32,000 nt of DNA from Kiritimatiella glycovorans (GTDB taxonomy: Bacteria; Verrucomicrobiota; Kiritimatiellia; Kiritimatiellales; Kiritimatiellaceae), in assembly GCF_001017655.1 (NCBI RefSeq), contig NZ_CP010904.1, positions 2,400,001-2,432,000 on the forward strand, given 5' to 3'. Of the stretch, positions 1,429 through 32,000 are shown piece by piece. Under the pieces are notes generated by a model, which worked only from the letters and a program-made list of their open reading frames with translations, was not told the DNA's origin and made no database searches. The stretch's first letter is position 1. Each line of letters begins with the position of its first letter. The translations under genes were made by a program, and so were the position numbers.

Positions 1429-1818
1429 TCACACCCTGACGATCTGGGGCAGCAGCGAAAAGTGGTCGTCGCGGGAGTAGAGGATCAGGTCGTGCTGCAC
1501 GGCCAGCGCCGCGATCCAGATATCGTGCGTCGGGATCGGTCTTCCGAGCATGCGCAGCTGCGCGAAAATGCGTCCGTAGTGATGACTGGTATCTTCATCC
1601 GGCCTCAACACGGCGACCCGTTCCGAGTTGAGAAACGTCGTCAGCCCCCGCTCGTTGCGGCGTGCGAGCGTCCCGCAGAGAAACCCGGCCCTCAGTTCGG
1701 CCAGCACAATCAGCGGCATGAATATATTTCGGGCGCGCCGCACCACCTGCAGGGCCTCCCGATCTCCGGAACAGAAATCACAGTATCGGTTCGTGTCGAT
1801 TAAAAGGTTCATCTCCAC
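1429..1818 (-). CDS. vapC: PIN-domain toxin VapC (type II TA ribonuclease)
   Basis: 129 aa with an N-terminal LLIDTN motif (PIN acidic residue), a central LAELRAG segment, and a C-terminal IPTHDIWIAALAV...LYSRDDHF pattern. Its start overlaps the stop of the upstream antitoxin gene by 10 nt. Confidence 0.85.
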   Translation of the reverse strand: MEMNLLIDTNRYCDFCSGDREALQVVRRARNIFMPLIVLAELRAGFLCGTLARRNERGLTTFLNSERVAVLRPDEDTSHHYGRIFAQLRMLGRPIPTHDIWIAALAVQHDLILYSRDDHFSLLPQIVRV

Positions 1819-2069
1819 AGGTCCTCATCGATCTGCTCGAACGCCTTCAGGGCCTCGTCAAACGCGGGATCTTCCACCCAGCTCCCCGACACCGCATCAA
1901 GATCATGGTGTTCGATCGGCTCCTCGCCCACCCCCGCCGACGCCGACAGAGCCTCCACCGCCACATAATTCAGGCTGCGCCCTTCCCGGACGGCCTGCGC
2001 CCGCAGACGCCGGTCCACCTCCGGAGGCACATCGCGAATCGTATACTGGATTTTATGCCTCTTTTTCAT
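1809..2069 (-). CDS. vapB: VapB/FitA-like ribbon-helix-helix antitoxin
   Basis: MKKRHKIQYTIRDVPPEVDRRLRAQAVREGRSLNYVAVEAL is a typical Arc/MetJ-type RHH N-terminus. The gene overlaps vapC. The start is uncertain: alternatives are ATG at 2099 or TTG at 2105. Confidence 0.7.
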   Translation of the reverse strand: MKKRHKIQYTIRDVPPEVDRRLRAQAVREGRSLNYVAVEALSASAGVGEEPIEHHDLDAVSGSWVEDPAFDEALKAFEQIDEDLWR

Positions 2070-2108
2070 GCCTGCTATGATGGCACTTTTTGCCTTCATC
2101 TGCAAGGA

Positions 2109-2129: not shown

Positions 2130-2232
2130 AAATCGAAATCGGGATTCACCACTGAGGCCACAGAGGATGCCGGGTTCGGGTTGGGAACCGCCGGCACGGA
2201 TGCGGATGAAGAATCGGGACTCACCACGAAGG

Positions 2233-2344
2233 ATACGAAGGACAACCGGGGGGGGAAGAACGAAGCCGGCCGGGTCAGGCTTCAGGACCGAAAATATCCC
2301 CCACCCCCTCGAGCACATGGCCCGGGCGGTAGGGATAGTTCTGC
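2233..2344. repeat. Copy A of a perfect 112-bp direct repeat (partner 4142..4253); carries a duplicated 3' fragment of the HAD gene
   Basis: By manual alignment, 2233-2344 is identical to 4142-4253 (offset 1909). Copy A contains the last ~22 codons plus stop of the HAD gene (2275-2344, minus strand) without the rest of the gene. Confidence 0.9.
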
Positions 2345-2455
2345 GGGGGTCCCGATTCGGAAGTCAGGAGTGCCGGTCTACTATGACGGACAGGATAAAG
2401 GGCTCGAGAAAGCGGTTCGATTACGTGTATCCGGGTAAGTGTTGCGGTGAAGAAT

Positions 2456-2522
2456 GCGGTTAAGGGTTCGTGGAAGGGCGCAGTCCACACTTCAGCGGAC
2501 CCTTCGTCGCCCACTTAACCGC
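2456..2522 (+). ncRNA. Candidate structured RNA in the IS110 left arm (possible bridge/seek-RNA stem-loop)
   Basis: A 9-bp outer stem GCGGTTAAG (2456-2464) / CTTAACCGC (2514-2522) encloses an inner stem GAAGGG (2473-2478) / CCCTTC (2500-2505). The structure lies ~140-200 nt upstream of the transposase ATG, where IS110-group guide RNAs are encoded. Confidence 0.3.
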
Positions 2523-2662
2523 CACCTTTACTCGGATACGCTTAATCGATCCGTCTTAAACGGCCTAATTTGGGATGATAACCATATAGAGGTTCTTTGA
2601 AATAGACGCTGGTCGAATGCAACGTACTCTTTGTTTAAGCAAAAACGAAAGGAGTACCGGAT

Positions 2663-3691
2663 ATGCAAACGACCAGCGCAAAGGAATTGTACGCAGGAGC
2701 CGACCTGCATGGAAACAATGTTTTTCTCTCGATTTGCGACCGGGAAGGCACGGAAGTCTTCCGGCGGCGGGTACGAACCACGCTCGATGCAGTCAATGAG
2801 GCGATGGATCCCTACTGGCCGCAGGTTCAGGCGATGGGGATTGAGTCCACGTTCAACTGGTACTGGCTGGTGGACGGCTTGCGTGAGCAGAACCGGGACG
2901 TGCGATTGGGGAATCCGGCGAAGATGAAACAGTACAAGGGGTTGAAACATGCCGATGACGCATCGGATGCTCGTTGGCTGGCCGAACTGCTCCGATTGGA
3001 TATTTTCCCGGAGAGCTACATTTATCCGAAGGAGGTTCGTTCGATTCGCGACGCGCTTCGACGCCGACAGCTGTTTGTCAGGCGGCGCACCCAGGTTATG
3101 CTCAGCCTGCAAAGCCTGCTGGAGCGTTACGGATTCAAGGCGCCGGGATCGCGTGCTCTTCAGCAGTGGACGCAGGCGGATGTCGAGGCGACGGGCCTTG
3201 ATCCGTTCGTACAGCTTCAACTCCGCACGTTGCTTGAGGCGGTCCAGTGCAGTGAGCGGCTGGCCGGACAGATCGAATCAGCGGTGCTGGGGTTTATTGA
3301 GCCCAACCCATCGTTTGAACAGGTTCAGACCGTGCCGGGCATCGGGAAGGCGCTTGGGATGACCATCGTGCTTGAAAGCGGCAACTTCGCCCGCTTCCCG
3401 AACGCGGGATGCTACGCCTCCTACTGCCGCGCCGTCAAAAGTGAGCGAAGTTCCAACAGCAGGAAGAAAGGTGAGAACAATAAGCGCAACGGCAATCCGT
3501 TTCTCGCATGGGCTTTCGTTGAAGCCGCGAGCTTCGCTCCGCGCTTTTATCCGGAGATTCAATCCTGGTATGACCGGAAGAAGAAAAAGCGCAACGCGAT
3601 TGTGGCGAAGAAGGCCTTGGCGGCAAAATTGTCCAAAGCCGTTTGGCATGTCATGAACGGGGAGGAATATGTAATGGGAATGTTGTTTTAA
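2663..3691 (+). CDS. IS110-family (DEDD) transposase/recombinase
   Basis: 342 aa. The N-terminus has a DEDD_Tnp_IS110-like segment (LYAGADLHGNNVFL...GIESTFNWYWL). The C-terminus has the Transposase_20 signature (VPGIGKALGMTIVLESGNFARFPNAGCYASYCRAV...SS...KKGENNKRNGNPFLAWAFVEAA). RBS AAAGGAG lies 7 nt upstream of the ATG. Confidence 0.9.
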   Translation: MQTTSAKELYAGADLHGNNVFLSICDREGTEVFRRRVRTTLDAVNEAMDPYWPQVQAMGIESTFNWYWLVDGLREQNRDVRLGNPAKMKQYKGLKHADDASDARWLAELLRLDIFPESYIYPKEVRSIRDALRRRQLFVRRRTQVMLSLQSLLERYGFKAPGSRALQQWTQADVEATGLDPFVQLQLRTLLEAVQCSERLAGQIESAVLGFIEPNPSFEQVQTVPGIGKALGMTIVLESGNFARFPNAGCYASYCRAVKSERSSNSRKKGENNKRNGNPFLAWAFVEAASFAPRFYPEIQSWYDRKKKKRNAIVAKKALAAKLSKAVWHVMNGEEYVMGMLF

Positions 3692-4141
3692 AACCCGATG
3701 CTGCCGGGAACCGGCTAGGGGTCTGCTTAAATCAGCGGACTGATTGGAACCGGCGGCATCGCTTCAGCTTTTGCGGTCTGTCCTGTCGTCAGCCTTCAAG
3801 GGTCTGGAAGTCTGCGTGCAGATGAACCACGGTGACTGAATAGGCAACGAGCGGGAACAAACGGTTTTCTGGCTCCAATACGAGAACGGGTGGCGGCCAT
3901 GGATCTGGAAAAGATTCGCCCTCACCTAAAAACCAGATGGGTGACTGAAACAACCGCAAACGAAAACCACGGTACGGAACGCAACGGTTGAGGCGACGGT
4001 TGAATCCGATCAAAACAAGGCATGAAGGGAAGCCGCTTGATCAGCGGCACGAAGGGGACTTTTGTGTTTGACCGGAACCTCTAATGGGTGACTCCTTTCA
4101 TTCAGTTAGAAACAGCCAAGCTTTGCTTGGCGCACCGAAGA

Positions 4142-4253
4142 ATACGAAGGACAACCGGGGGGGGAAGAACGAAGCCGGCCGGGTCAGGCTTCAGGACCGA
4201 AAATATCCCCCACCCCCTCGAGCACATGGCCCGGGCGGTAGGGATAGTTCTGC
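4142..4253. repeat. Copy B of the perfect 112-bp direct repeat (partner 2233..2344)
   Basis: Identical to 2233-2344. It overlaps the authentic 3' end of the HAD gene (4184-4253) plus 42 bp downstream of its stop. Confidence 0.9.
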
Positions 4254-4963
4254 AGGTCTTCACGGGAGCTTACGCCGCTGAGGACGAGGACCGTTTCGAT
4301 GCCGGCCTCGATGCCGGCGATGATGTCGGTGTCCATGCGGTCGCCGACGATGGCCGTCTCCTCCCGCCGGCAGCCGAGTTTTTTCAGCGCGCTGCGCATC
4401 ATCAGCGGATTGGGCTTGCCCGTGAAATAGGCTTTGCGGCCGGAGGTCATCTCGATCGGCGCAATCAGCGACCCGGTGGCGGGTACGAGGCCGCCCTCGG
4501 CCGGACCGGTGACGTCGGGATTGGTTCCGATCAGCCGTGCGCCCTTCAGCACGAGCGAAGCCGCGTGGCGCACGCGCTCGTAATTGTAGCTGCCCGTCTC
4601 GCCGACCACGACGTAATCGGGACAGACCTCATCGATCGAAAACCCCGCGTCGTAAAGGGCATTCGTGAGTCCCGGCTCGCCGATCACGTAGCACGACCCG
4701 CCCTCGCACTGCGACGCCAGGAAAGCGGCCGTCGCCATCGCGCTCGTGTAGAAGTGTTCCGCGTCGACGTCGAGTCCCAGCCGACGGAGTTTCTCGCTCA
4801 GCTCGCGCGGCGATCGCTGGCTGCTGTTGGTGAGGAAGAGGTAATGCCTGCCGCGGTCCTTCAGCGCCTGCAGAAAATCCTGCGCCCCGGAGAGCAGCAG
4901 GTCGCCGTGATAGATCACGCCGTCCATGTCGCAGATAAAGCCCTTTTTGCCGGTCAGTTTCAT
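4184..4963 (-). CDS. HAD-IIA family sugar/nucleotide phosphatase (NagD-like)
   Basis: 259 aa with motif I (FICDMDGVIY), TNSS, FTGKPNP and IVGDRMDTDIIAG, which is the classical NagD/HAD-IIA pattern. Confidence 0.85.
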   Translation of the reverse strand: MKLTGKKGFICDMDGVIYHGDLLLSGAQDFLQALKDRGRHYLFLTNSSQRSPRELSEKLRRLGLDVDAEHFYTSAMATAAFLASQCEGGSCYVIGEPGLTNALYDAGFSIDEVCPDYVVVGETGSYNYERVRHAASLVLKGARLIGTNPDVTGPAEGGLVPATGSLIAPIEMTSGRKAYFTGKPNPLMMRSALKKLGCRREETAIVGDRMDTDIIAGIEAGIETVLVLSGVSSREDLQNYPYRPGHVLEGVGDIFGPEA

Positions 4964-29746: not shown

Positions 29747-29874
29747 TGCTTCTGCGGGCCTGACCCCCGCTACATCTTCATTGTGAAGGACTTACCTTCT
29801 GCGGGTCTGACCCCCGCTACATGCTTCTGCGGGTCTGACCCCCGCTACATCTTCATTGTGAAGGACTTACATCC
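29747..29874. repeat. Cluster of three REP-like units (CTTCTGCGGGYCTGACCCCCGCTACAT), two followed by CTTCATTGTGAAGGACTTA
   Basis: Direct copies begin near 29750, 29797 and 29825. Each contains the hairpin GCGGG-N7-CCCGC, and the extension contains the hairpin CTTCA-TTG-TGAAG. The cluster overlaps the 3' end of the RAYT-like gene. Confidence 0.85.
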
Positions 29875-30792: not shown

Positions 30793-30808
30793 CGGGGGTC
30801 AGACCCCG
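30793..30808. repeat. Inverted copy of the REP core (CGGGGGTCAGACCCCG) on the other side of the RAYT gene
   Basis: CGGGGGTCAGACCC is the reverse complement of GGGTCTGACCCCCG, found in the 29747-29874 cluster. Confidence 0.7.
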
Positions 30809-30824
30809 TTTCACTACAGCGGCA

Positions 30825-32000
30825 CGGATCATCCCCACGCGTGTGGGGAGAACGGTCGCGGCTAGCGCCATGAGGCTGAGGATATAGGATCATCCCCACG
30901 CGTGTGGGGAGAACTTTTCTTTGGTTGGTTATCCGATTGCATGAAGAGGATCATCCCCACGCGTGTGGGGAGAACGCTAGCGGAAATCGACAAGACACGC
31001 GCAGTGACGGATCATCCCCACGCGTGTGGGGAGAACGAAACTAAAAGCGGTGTCATTCCAAGTAAAGTCGGATCATCCCCACGCGTGTGGGGAGAACTCC
31101 CACAGGGTTTTGTCGGCGTTGTCGCTGTACGGATCATCCCCACGCGTGTGGGGAGAACATATTTTCGGAAGTTACAAGGAAAACAAATATCGGATCATCC
31201 CCACGCGTGTGGGGAGAACTCCTCAATTGGATTGTTAAGTCGAACTTGGTTCGGATCATCCCCACGCGTGTGGGGAGAACCCACGCCAAGGCGCAACGCT
31301 ATTACCGACAAACGGATCATCCCCACGCGTGTGGGGAGAACCCACCATGATTTAATGAATAAACCCGATTGTTCGGATCATCCCCACGCGTGTGGGGAGA
31401 ACTCCACAATTGTTACGACGAAACGCGGTATATGCGGATCATCCCCACGCGTGTGGGGAGAACTCTTTCAGGTCGGTCGCTTCTTGCGGTTCCAACGGAT
31501 CATCCCCACGCGTGTGGGGAGAACGGGGGGTTGTTTTCTTGGGGAAATAAAAGCCGACCATCATCCCCACGCGTGTGGGGAGAACGGAGCAGCATGAGGC
31601 CAACGTCAATGCTCACTCGGATCATCCCCACGCGTGTGGGGAGAACGAACAGCGACTTGCGACGACGCCATGTTTTGTCGGATCATCCCCACGCGTGTGG
31701 GGAGAACCCTAATTTGCCGTTGGGTTGCCAAGGTCTTGGCGGATCATCCCCACGCGTGTGGGGAGAACTGCCCTCTATGTTCCGCACCTTCATTTTGCGC
31801 CGGATCATCCCCACGCGTGTGGGGAGAACGCATCGAATTGCAACCCTGTCGAACTCGATCTCGGATCATCCCCACGCGTGTGGGGAGAACCAGATCAGAT
31901 CCGCGGAAGTGCTGGTAAAGAACGGATCATCCCCACGCGTGTGGGGAGAACGTTTGCAAGTGCTCCAGATAGGGTGAGTTTGCCGGATCATCCCCACGCG
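30825..32000 (-). CRISPR. Type I-E-like CRISPR array, 19 complete repeats plus a partial 20th, 19 spacers, continuing beyond the window
   Basis: The 29-nt repeat CGGATCATCCCCACGCGTGTGGGGAGAAC occurs at exact 61-nt period from 30825 to 31984, with unique 32-nt spacers. Its reverse complement GTTCTCCCCACACGCGTGGGGATGATCCG has the I-E architecture: a CCCCAC/GTGGGG stem and an 8-nt handle AUGAUCCG. Transcription is therefore inferred on the minus strand, with the leader beyond 32000. Confidence 0.97.

What the first reader, a model, noticed from the sequence alone, without database searches (positions are those of the whole stretch)
2345..4141. Structured non-coding arms of the IS110 element: candidate bridge/seek RNA with a guide-like match to a host repeat motif
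The left arm contains a nested ~67-nt hairpin (2456-2522). The strand of its inner stem carries CCTTCGT (2501-2507). That heptamer is complementary to ACGAAGG, which occurs twice at the left flank (2226-2232, 2235-2241), once at the right flank (4144-4150), and as ACGAAGGG inside the right arm (4049-4056). The right arm starts with an 11-bp stem (GATGCTGCCGG 3697-3707 / CCGGCGGCATC 3750-3760, one G-U pair) that encloses AATCAG-CGGA-CTGATT. It also has three copies of GGTGACT(GAA) at 3831, 3940 and 4087, and a terminal hairpin CCAAGC-TTT-GCTTGG (4116-4130). IS110/IS1111 recombinases are known to use an element-encoded RNA that pairs with both target and donor. These features fit such an RNA targeting the CAYGAAGG host repeat. 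The 7-8 nt matches could be chance, however, because the motif is common locally.
Basis: partly seen in the sequence, partly recalled or inferred. Interest (0 to 1): 0.65.

Follow-up and report, generated by a model that had tools for sequence, protein, structure and literature searches.

The report
IS1111-type insertion sequence with guide RNA

Summary
Relatives with 64-97% nucleotide identity align only to 2576-~4098. The insertion sequence is therefore 2576-4090, with 87 nt before the transposase gene, about 400 nt after it, and 9-bp subterminal inverted repeats. This is the IS1111-type layout. The 2456-2522 hairpin lies outside the element, inside a longer hairpin (~2400-2565) of unknown origin. 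The flanking ACGAAGG copies at 2235 and 4144 are the same position in a 121-nt direct repeat, so they are not independent.

The guide RNA is in the right arm. Stem-loop SL1 (3696-3761) recurs just after the transposase stop in about 115 of 168 related loci. In 71 distinct sequences all 14 of its base pairs show compensatory changes. Its 3' strand copies each element's left flank (z=16). Its 5' strand is complementary to the right flank (z=4.5). A second motif (3936-3945) co-varies with the right end. Intact paralogous targets give target = left flank-TG-ACCCC..., and the joined ends form a promoter.

Verdict: a new member of a known kind (IS1111-type seekRNA/bridge RNA). The 121-nt duplication and the 230-nt hairpin region remain unexplained.

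The parts
2227..2347 (.). Left copy of the 121-nt direct repeat. It is a duplicate of the 3' end of the NagD-like HAD gene plus 48 nt downstream. It is not part of the IS.
   Evidence: the repeat finder family D3, 98% identity, spacing 1909. Perfect block 2233-2344 = 4142-4253.
2345..2575 (.). X-left: a 230-nt stretch of unknown origin between the repeat and the IS.
   Evidence: MFE -96.3 kcal/mol, z = -4.1 (+ strand) and -5.6 (- strand). No similarity to 168 related loci, to the rest of the window, or to plasmids. No Rfam match.
2576..4090 (+). The insertion sequence proper, 1.51 kb. A core TG is present at both junctions (2576-2577 and 4089-4090).
   Evidence: All relatives (64-97% nt identity) align only to 2576-~4098. 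Junction table. Intact paralogous targets in L074, L091 and L008 read LT-TG-ACCCC.
2576..2662 (+). Short left end of 87 nt: TG-ATAACCATA, then the subterminal inverted repeat TAGAGGTTC (2587-2595). GATAAC (2577-2582) would be the -10 box of the circle-junction promoter.
   Evidence: The LE start is conserved in 115 of 168 loci. The inverted repeat is read from the sequence. Promoter test.
2663..3691 (+). Transposase/recombinase, 342 aa, DEDD type.
   Evidence: PF01548 + PF02371. NCBIfam NF033542 'IS110 family RNA-guided transposase', 168 bits against a cut-off of 140. Best PDB profile hits are the ISCro4 and IS621 transposases.
3696..3761 (+). SL1, the target-binding stem-loop and equivalent of the seekRNA. 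It has a 12-bp outer stem. The 5' loop strand 3713-3723 (GGCUAGGGGUC) is complementary to the top strand of G-ACCCC+N (right flank). The 3' loop strand 3733-3744 (CAGCGGAC-UG-AU) equals left flank + core TG + the first 2 nt of the IS.
   Evidence: Model R1 gives one hit in the window (87.8 bits). About 115 of 168 loci have a + strand hit just after the tnp stop. 95.6% of cells are paired and 14 of 14 pairs show compensatory changes, against <=47% paired in slid controls. Flank co-variation: z = 16 and z = 4.5, 0 of 20000 shuffles in each case.
3779..3859 (+). SL2, a second stem-loop that is a paralogue of SL1. Its guide-like strands are invariant (CAAGGGUCUGG 3797-3807; CCACGGUGACUGAAUAGG 3827-3844). 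Its role is unknown.
   Evidence: RNAalifold consensus with compensatory changes in the outer stem and the terminal hairpin. The wider family shows the same module, reading AAAGGGGUUGG...AAGAUYUG.
3861..3969 (+). SL3, the candidate donor-binding module. GAUGGG-UG-AC (3936-3945) equals the right end of the IS + core + the first 2 nt of the right flank. [quoted passage not shown]
   Evidence: The GATGGGTGACTG motif is present in 118 of 168 loci. It co-varies with the last 9 nt of the RE (z = 8.1; examples). For the RDG candidate, 6.51 against 6.29 pairs, z = 4.4. In this clade that strand also forms an RNA helix with 3962-3968.
4032..4048 (+). Conserved hairpin GCCGCU-UGAUC-AGCGGC near the right end, followed 11 nt later by a U-rich run. 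It may mark the end of the RNA.
   Evidence: The alignment shows compensatory changes among relatives.
4068..4090 (+). Right terminus: the -35-like TTGACC (4068-4073), the subterminal inverted repeat GAACCTCTA (4075-4083), then ATGGG-TG.
   Evidence: Joining the ends with a single TG gives TTGACC-N16-GATAAC. Across 77 unique junctions the mean best promoter score is 9.29 of 12, against 7.92 for the alternative join.
4091..4141 (.). X-right: the right flank of the IS (ACTCCTTTCATT...), including hairpin 4115-4131. That hairpin is terminator-like on the - strand, downstream of the HAD gene. X-right is not part of the IS.
   Evidence: Relatives diverge here. Terminator scan.
4136..4256 (.). Right copy of the 121-nt direct repeat. 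It is contiguous with the intact HAD gene 4184-4963 (-).

Best explanation
The window carries one copy of an IS1111-type member of the IS110 family, at 2576-4090, in Kiritimatiella glycovorans. A DEDD recombinase gene (2663-3691) is followed by about 280 nt of structured non-coding RNA on the same strand (3692-~3970). This RNA acts as the element's bridge/seek RNA.

SL1 (3696-3761) is the target-binding loop. [quoted passage not shown] It then runs 2 nt into the sequence of the IS left end, like a 'handshake' guide.

SL3 carries the matching donor guides. GAUGGG-UG-AC equals right end + core + 2 nt of the right target half. A U-rich strand can pair with the left end.

The element would excise as a circle whose junction is ...TTGACC-N16-GATAAC.... 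That junction forms a sigma-70 promoter which drives the transposase and the RNA. The element then integrates at LT-TG-ACCCC sites.

Shown here: the element boundaries, the RNA structure with compensatory changes, guide-flank and guide-end co-variation across about 100 relatives, the TG core from intact paralogous targets, and the promoter geometry.

Inferred: transcription, RNA-protein binding, the handshake role, the assignment of the left-end guide, and whether this copy is active.

This copy sits in an imperfect site (TTTGGGA-TG-ACTCCTT). The site lies at the foot of a long hairpin, and the hairpin lies between two copies of a 121-nt host repeat. That context is not explained by the IS mechanism.
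For: - **Boundaries.** blastn against 168 fetched loci shows every relative aligning only to 2576-~4098. The junction tables agree.
- **Protein.** PF01548 + PF02371, NF033542, and profile hits to the ISCro4 and IS621 transposases.
- **Layout.** LE is 87 nt and RE about 400 nt, with a 9-bp subterminal inverted repeat. This matches the published IS1111 description.
- **SL1.** One model hit in the 32-kb window and hits in about 115 of 168 loci, all on the + strand just after the stop codon. 95.6% of cells are paired and 14 of 14 pairs have compensatory changes.
- **Left guide against left flank.** 4.22 identical positions of 6, against 2.45 in shuffled pairings (z = 16, 0 of 20000).
- **Right guide against right flank.** z = 4.5.
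- **Donor guide against RE end.** z = 8.1 (all three tests; examples).
- **Core.** Intact targets in L074, L091 and L008 read LT-TG-ACCCC.
- **Promoter.** Scores across the circle junction favour the single-TG join.
- **Guide order.** The top-strand match lies 5' of the bottom-strand match, as reported for IS1111 seekRNAs, which also sit just after the tnp stop.
Against: - There are no expression data.
- No Rfam family matches. I could not establish whether Rfam holds a bridge-RNA family at all.
- This copy's own flanks fit its guides poorly on the left: 2 of 6, or 4 of 6 if one C was lost at the junction. The right side pairs over 7 nt only with one G-T wobble.
- The left-end (RDG) guide is weakly supported. 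In this clade that strand also pairs within the RNA.
- SL2 has no assigned role.
- The shuffle tests do not fully remove relatedness among loci.
- The recombinase motif around the catalytic serine (CR-V-x5-SN) departs from the published G-P-x4-SG.
Confidence: 0.85

Rival explanations
1. The upstream hairpin 2456-2522 is part of the element's bridge/seek RNA, and its CCTTCGT pairs with ACGAAGG host repeats at the flanks.
For: The hairpin is real and unusually stable. ACGAAGG is mildly enriched locally.
Against: - The hairpin is outside the conserved element. The closest relative (96.6% identity, L161) has unrelated DNA upstream of 2569-2576.
- X-left has no homologue in any related locus.
- The SL1 model finds nothing there on either strand.
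- The flanking ACGAAGG copies belong to one 121-nt duplication and lie 50-340 nt from the true junctions.
- The guides that co-vary with flanks lie elsewhere.
Confidence: 0.03
2. The long hairpin region X (2345-2575 plus 4091-4141) is a structured host or repeat element that served as the insertion context. IS1111-type elements often land in or beside palindromic repeats. X together with the IS reached this site by a separate rearrangement that duplicated 121 nt. Candidate routes are a template switch at microhomologies, Campbell-type integration of a circle, or decay of an island between attL and attR.
For: - The IS junction lies about 10-17 nt from the foot of the hairpin.
- About 9 of 50 relatives have reconstructed empty sites with z <= -3.4. 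One of them is L074, whose target lies in the arm of an inverted repeat.
- Published IS1111 targets are REP, attC and terminal-repeat structures.
- Both edges of the repeat show about 10 nt of imperfect extra similarity.
- The 4115-4131 hairpin looks like the HAD gene's terminator.
Against: - There is no general tendency to structured sites across the family (median z = -0.2, not different from controls).
- No second copy of X was found, and no empty site is available.
- The mechanism of the duplication was not tested.
Confidence: 0.4
3. X-left is a non-autonomous passenger module mobilised by the IS recombinase, like ssr9 with ISPpu9. The 1.9-kb unit (X + IS + one repeat copy) moves as a whole.
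For: Modular circles are documented for ISPpu9. L167 has an extra copy of the left-end terminus 241 nt upstream of its IS. L074 has a perfect 55-nt duplication abutting its IS.
Against: X has no IS-end-like termini and no related copies. The repeat is host gene sequence. There is no TG-AC pseudo-site at the repeat edges next to the IS ends.
Confidence: 0.08
4. The conserved right-arm structures are not guides. They are terminators, attenuators or protein-binding DNA sites for end recognition.
For: Subterminal inverted repeats exist and may be recognised by the protein. A hairpin followed by a U-rich run lies near the end.
Against: Compensatory changes in all 14 SL1 pairs argue for a folded single strand. 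The loop strands track each element's own flanks and ends. A terminator or a protein-binding site would not do this.
Confidence: 0.04

Closest known systems
IS1111-group insertion sequences with a 3' seekRNA (ISEc11, ISPa11, ISKpn4; Siddiquee et al. 2024, PMC11187229)
   Same: - The transposase is 330-350 aa (342 aa here).
- The non-coding region before tnp is short and the one after it is long.
- Subterminal inverted repeats are present.
- A stem-loop RNA of about 70-95 nt starts just after the stop codon.
- The top-strand target match lies 5' of the bottom-strand match, and the two overlap at the insertion point.
- A promoter forms at the circle junction.
- Targets often lie in folded repeats.
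   Different: - Sequence is distant. Plasmid relatives are <=42% identical, and the nearest named one is 'ISGsu4 family'.
- The motif around the catalytic serine is CR-V-x5-SN, not GL-P-x4-S(T)G.
- The target is ...TG-ACCCC.
- There are three RNA modules, where the published description gives a short and a long RNA.
- Nothing has been tested experimentally here.
IS621 bridge RNA (Durrant et al. 2024, PMC11208160; Hiraizumi et al. 2024, PMC11208158)
   Same: - There are two loops, one for the target and one for the donor.
[quoted passage not shown]
- A 2-nt core is included in the pairings.
- Short 'handshake' extensions match the non-cognate partner.
- The paper predicts bridge RNAs in the right end of 93% of IS1111 elements.
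   Different: - The RNA is in the right end, not the left.
- The order of the guide strands in the loop is reversed.
- The core is TG, not CT.
- The handshake-like 2 nt follow the left guides, not the right guides.
- There is an extra middle module (SL2).
- Protein similarity is detectable only by profile (E = 5e-5).
ISPpu9 with its ssr9 module (Pares-Guillen et al. 2025, PMC12288879)
   Same: It is an IS110-family element inserted in palindromic repeats, with neighbouring non-coding modules that can travel with it.
   Different: No evidence here that X is mobile or repeated. ISPpu9 does not form a junction promoter, whereas this family appears to.

Membership tests
IS110 family (DEDD recombinase elements) | Transposase with an N-terminal DEDD/RuvC-like domain (PF01548) and a C-terminal PF02371 domain. 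| tested here: met
   PF01548 at 7.7e-14 and PF02371 at 7.3e-12, both above the gathering score. NF033542 scores 168 bits against a cut-off of 140.
IS110 family (DEDD recombinase elements) | Conserved catalytic acidic residues, and a serine in the G-P-x4-SG motif. | tested here: inconclusive
   L15, E61, D99 and D102 are invariant, and D14 nearly so (>=90%), in 23 relatives. They sit in the stretch that aligns with ISCro4 and IS621. S264-N265 are invariant, but the surrounding motif reads CR-V-x5-SN, not G-P-x4-SG. There is no structural or biochemical check.
IS110 family (DEDD recombinase elements) | No terminal inverted repeats, and site-specific insertion with only a short core repeated at both junctions. 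| tested here: met
   TG is present at both junctions. Intact paralogous targets read LT-TG-ACCCC.
IS1111 subgroup | Subterminal inverted repeats of 7-17 bp. | tested here: met
   TAGAGGTTC at 2587-2595 and GAACCTCTA at 4075-4083, 9 bp, conserved in relatives.
IS1111 subgroup | The long non-coding region lies downstream of tnp and the left end is short. | tested here: met
   87 nt upstream against about 400 nt downstream.
IS1111 subgroup | Transposase of 330-350 aa with the C-terminal GL-P-x4-S(T)G motif. | tested here: not met
   The length of 342 aa fits. The motif is replaced by CR-V-x5-SN in this clade. I therefore call the element IS1111-type by architecture, not a proven member of the curated IS1111 clade.
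Bridge RNA / seekRNA | A structured RNA encoded in the element's long non-coding end, on the tnp strand. | tested here: met
   SL1-SL3 have compensatory changes and occur on the + strand only. Transcription itself was not tested.
Bridge RNA / seekRNA | [quoted passage not shown] | tested here: met
   Co-variation with the left flank (z = 16) and the right flank (z = 4.5) across 76-89 unique loci.
Bridge RNA / seekRNA | A donor-binding loop that matches the element's own ends. | tested here: inconclusive
   The right-end guide co-varies with the RE terminus (z = 8.1, but only 17 unique pairs). The left-end guide is only suggestive and has a competing intramolecular helix.
Bridge RNA / seekRNA | The RNA binds the recombinase, is required for transposition, and can be reprogrammed. 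| not testable with these tools
   This needs RIP or small-RNA-seq and transposition assays.
Rfam families | A match to a curated covariance model. | tested here: not met
   No hit at the gathering score or at E <= 10 for either arm. This is uninformative if Rfam 15 has no bridge-RNA model.

The most novel reading that the evidence does not exclude
The long flanking duplications are a by-product of RNA-guided recombination at two staggered sites or pseudo-sites, or of circles that carry host DNA. Two cases were seen: 121 nt here, set back from the IS ends by X, and a perfect 55 nt abutting the IS in L074. In L074 the right junction uses a TG-AC pseudo-target 57 nt upstream of the true target. 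If this reading is right, IS1111-type elements can duplicate and mobilise adjacent host sequence, here including the 3' end of a gene and a 230-nt hairpin module.
Probability: 0.1. Interest if true: 0.6.

Novelty: new member of a known kind. Interest (0 to 1): 0.3.

Why it matters
It corrects the annotation of this locus. The element is 1.51 kb, not 1.8 kb, and its guide RNA lies in the right arm.

It also gives a worked pairing scheme for a large, mostly uncharacterised clade of IS1111-type elements. The clade is found in Kiritimatiellota, Verrucomicrobiota, Desulfobacterota, Proteobacteria and others. The scheme has a TG core, a target of N6-TG-ACCCC-N3, guides at defined positions, and 2-nt extensions into the partner sequence.

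The scheme could be used to predict targets and to choose orthologues for programmable recombination. The concept itself has been published since 2024, so the finding is confirmatory and not surprising.

The unexplained 121-nt duplication and the hairpin-rich filler are the only parts that might lead somewhere new.

Tried and rejected
- **Rfam scans.** Whole window at the gathering score, and both arms at E <= 10. Only chance-level hits.
- **Exact-protein look-ups.** The transposase, the HAD protein and the antitoxin returned nothing on record, so no other copies or alleles of this genome could be read.
- **Search for close relatives of the HAD (NagD-like) protein, to find an empty site.** The best hit is 76% identical, so no syntenic comparator exists. 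That expensive search gave no return.
- **X-left against the related loci, the window and plasmids.** No match.
- **First junction model.** I first assumed that the IS runs TGATAA...GGGTGAC and that the target is GGAC|CCCC. I rejected this after finding intact targets reading LT-TG-ACCCC in L074, L091 and L008, and because it gives worse junction promoters (7.92 against 9.29).
- **General preference for hairpin-rich insertion sites in the family.** Not supported overall (median z = -0.2, Mann-Whitney p = 0.62), although a subset is extreme.
- **DGR template/variable repeats, a CRISPR-type repeat duplication, or an assembly artefact as explanations for the 121-nt repeat.** Set aside. There is no reverse transcriptase, the block is 100% identical, and the source is a finished 2.9-Mb chromosome.
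- **SL2 as a second programmable target loop.** Its guide-like strands do not track the flanks.
Full report
**1. What is in the sequence**

The window comes from the Kiritimatiella glycovorans chromosome. The transposase is 100% identical to a protein that NCBI names from that organism, on a 2,949,723-bp contig.

Between 2345 and 4141 there is one intact ORF, 2663-3691 on the + strand, of 342 aa. It carries the two Pfam domains of IS110-family transposases. It scores 168 bits against NCBIfam NF033542, 'IS110 family RNA-guided transposase', whose cut-off is 140. A profile built from 23 relatives finds the ISCro4 and IS621 transposases as its best solved structures (E = 8e-6 and 5e-5).

**2.

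The interval 2345-4141 is exactly the DNA between two copies of a 121-nt direct repeat. The repeat spans 2227-2347 and 4136-4256, with a perfect 112-nt block 2233-2344 = 4142-4253. It contains the last 24 codons of the NagD-like HAD gene (4184-4963, - strand) plus 48 nt downstream.

I fetched 168 loci that encode relatives of the transposase. In blastn, every one that is alignable at the DNA level matches only window 2576 to about 4098. This includes L161-L163 at 96.6-96.7% identity.

Junction tables show a conserved left terminus, TGATAACCATATAGAGGTTC, and a conserved right terminus, GACCGGAACCTCTAATGGGTGAC. Outside these termini the DNA is unrelated.

The element therefore has 87 nt before the start codon and about 400 nt after the stop codon. 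It has 9-bp subterminal inverted repeats: TAGAGGTTC at 2587-2595 and GAACCTCTA at 4075-4083. This is the published architecture of the IS1111 group.

**3. The ACGAAGG idea**

The heptamer occurs 9 times in 32 kb against 4.5 expected, and 2 of 100 shuffles reach 9.

- The copies at 2235 and 4144 are the same position of the 121-nt repeat.
- The copy at 2226 is its tandem neighbour.
- The copy at 4049 lies in a spacer that differs among relatives.
- None of the copies is at a junction of the real element.

The proposed guide-target match is therefore at the level of chance.

**4. The real guide RNA is in the right arm**

An alignment of right ends from 15 elements, with its RNAalifold consensus, shows three structured modules followed by a hairpin near the end.

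For SL1 (3696-3761) I built a covariance model.

- It hits once in the window (3693-3764, + strand, 87.8 bits).
- It hits in about 115 of 168 loci, always on the transposase strand and just after the stop codon.
- In 71 distinct sequences, 95.6% of cells are paired and all 14 pairs show compensatory changes. Registers slid by 1-3 columns reach at most 47% paired.
- On an independent MAFFT alignment, 97.3% of cells are paired.

**5. The loop strands follow each element's own flanks**

In the junction table, the bases just 5' of UGAUUGG on the 3' strand of the SL1 loop repeat the bases just 5' of the element.

- L094: CAAGGGC in the RNA and caagggc in the flank.
- L018 and L019, two copies in one genome: AGGTT at both.
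- L154: TATCC.

Rare left-end variants (TGAG, CGAT, TGAA) are mirrored in the RNA.

I tested each relationship by shuffling the pairing among unique loci 20000 times, leaving out the window.

| Comparison | Unique pairs | Observed | Shuffled | z | Shuffles reaching observed |
|---|---|---|---|---|---|
| Left guide vs left flank (identical of 6) | 89 | 4.22 | 2.45 | 16 | 0 |
| Complement of the 5 nt before GGGG vs right flank +4..+8 | 76 | 2.08 | 1.61 | 4.5 | 0 |
| GATGGGTGAC motif (3936-3945) vs last 9 nt of the right end | 17 | 8.24 | 7.20 | 8.1 | 0 |

For the third comparison, GGGTGTC, GGGTGCC, GGCTGAC and GTGTGGC ends are each mirrored in the RNA.

These tests do not remove shared ancestry. 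However, many of the changes are in unrelated branches and in different genomes.

**6. Core and pairing scheme**

Three loci keep an intact paralogue of their own target next to the element.

- L074: GAGCAGACT-TG-ACCCCTTTTT.
- L091: CTAAGGAC-TG-ACCCCTTTCC.
- L008: GCAAGACC-TG-ACCCCGAGG.

Comparison with the occupied sites gives target = LT-TG-ACCCC... and donor = ...CTAATGGG-TG-ATAAYCAT.... TG is repeated at both junctions.

With this join, the circle junction carries a sigma-70-like promoter, TTGACN-N16-18-GATAAT. In the window it reads TTGACC-N16-GATAAC. Over 77 unique junctions the mean best score is 9.29 of 12, against 7.92 for the alternative join. A junction promoter is a known property of these families.

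On this scheme the guide strands in the window are as follows.

| Strand | Coordinates | Sequence | Reading |
|---|---|---|---|
| SL1 3' strand | 3733-3744 | CAGCGGAC-UG-AU | LT + core + first two bases of the left end |
| SL1 5' strand | 3713-3723 | GGCUAGGGGUC | complementary to G-ACCCC-TAGCC |
| SL3 motif | 3936-3945 | GAUGGG-UG-AC | right end + core + first two bases of the right target half |

The two 2-nt extensions match the product of strand exchange. This recalls the handshake guides of IS621, but here they follow the left guides. That role is my inference.

The order of the guide strands, with the top-strand match 5' of the bottom-strand match, is the reverse of IS621. It is the order reported for IS1111 seekRNAs.

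[quoted passage not shown] It co-varies weakly with that end (z = 4.4). In this clade the same strand also forms an RNA helix with 3962-3968, so its assignment is tentative.

SL2 (3779-3859) is a paralogue of SL1 with invariant strands, and I could not assign it a role.

**7. This copy**

The ORF is full length, the termini are intact, and the RNA modules score like those of relatives. The copy is probably functional.

Its site is TTTGGGA-TG-ACTCCTTTC.

- The right guide can pair over 7 nt (GACTCCT) if one G-T wobble is allowed.
- The left flank matches the left guide at only 2 of 6 positions, or 4 of 6 (GGAC) if one C was lost at the junction. The family mean is 4.2.
- The closest relative, L161, sits in TTTGGAC-TG.

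Better near-cognate motifs (GGTC-TG-ACCCC) lie unoccupied at 29757-29842 and 30795-30805.

**8. What remains unexplained**

X-left (2345-2575) folds into one long hairpin. It has no homologue in the material I could search. X-right contains a hairpin that looks like the HAD gene's terminator on the - strand.

Some relatives also sit in extreme palindromes, and L074's target lies in the arm of an inverted repeat. The family as a whole shows no such preference.

Long flank duplications occur in 4 of 82 loci. Two of them (L091, L008) are simply tandem arrays of target-bearing repeats. L074 has a perfect 55-nt duplication whose right junction uses a TG-AC pseudo-site.

In the window the repeat edges are not at the IS ends. 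Both edges show about 10 nt of imperfect extra similarity between the native side and the inserted side. This pattern would fit a template-switch insertion or recombination at short homologies.

I could not test this. The rest of the genome and any empty allele were out of reach.

**9. Verdict**

It is wrong in place, strand segment and target.

The element is a new member of a known kind. By architecture it is IS1111-type, with a divergent motif around the catalytic serine. Interest is modest.

Noticed in passing
window 2227-2347 and 4136-4256: A 121-nt direct repeat (112 nt perfect) that duplicates the 3' end of the NagD-like HAD gene. It brackets about 275 nt of unrelated DNA plus the IS. 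Both edges show about 10 nt of imperfect extra similarity. The origin is unknown: template switch, circle integration or an island remnant.
   Followed up: partly
window 2345-2575: A hairpin of about 165 nt (2400-2565), nearly fully paired, z = -4.1 and -5.6, with no Rfam match and no homologue found. The IS left junction lies 10-17 nt from its foot.
   Followed up: partly
window 29749-29850 and 30795-30805: Three copies of a 27-nt repeat, CTTCTGCGGGTCTGACCCCCGCTACAT, plus one inverted GGTCTGACCCC just before the CRISPR array. They carry the IS family's target consensus (GGTC-TG-ACCCC) and are unoccupied. There are 4 hits against 0.8 expected.
   Followed up: partly
window 30825-32000: A CRISPR array: 29-nt repeat CGGATCATCCCCACGCGTGTGGGGAGAAC, 61-nt period, at least 19 repeats. 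It runs off the end of the window.
   Followed up: no
window 1429-2105 (- strand): A PIN-domain toxin (VapC-like) and a FitA-like ribbon-helix-helix antitoxin, immediately left of the duplicated segment.
   Followed up: no
L074 2868-2922 and 4442-4496: A perfect 55-nt duplication that directly abuts both ends of a related IS. The right junction uses the pseudo-target CTCT-TG-ACTCATC, 57 nt upstream of the true target GCAGACT-TG-ACCCCTTT. The true target is intact and lies in the right arm of a 24-nt inverted repeat.
   Followed up: partly
L091 4472-4690; L008 1340-1450 and 2977-3090: Related IS copies sit inside tandem arrays of target-bearing repeats. L091 also has a solo fragment of the right end, about 95 nt, after the next repeat unit.
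   Followed up: partly
window 3779-3859 (SL2): A third conserved stem-loop between the target and donor modules. It is a paralogue of SL1, and its guide-like strands are invariant. In the wider family they read like the consensus target (AAAGGGGUUGG ... AAGAUYUG).
   Followed up: partly
transposase residues 255-265 (window 3425-3457): In this clade the motif around the presumed catalytic serine is CR-V-x5-SN, invariant in 23 relatives. The published motif for IS110/IS1111 transposases is G(L)-P-x4-S(T)G.
   Followed up: partly
L167 2675-2700: A second, 100% identical copy of the first 26 nt of the left end lies 241 nt upstream of the IS. It suggests a partial end copy or a nested insertion.
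   Followed up: no
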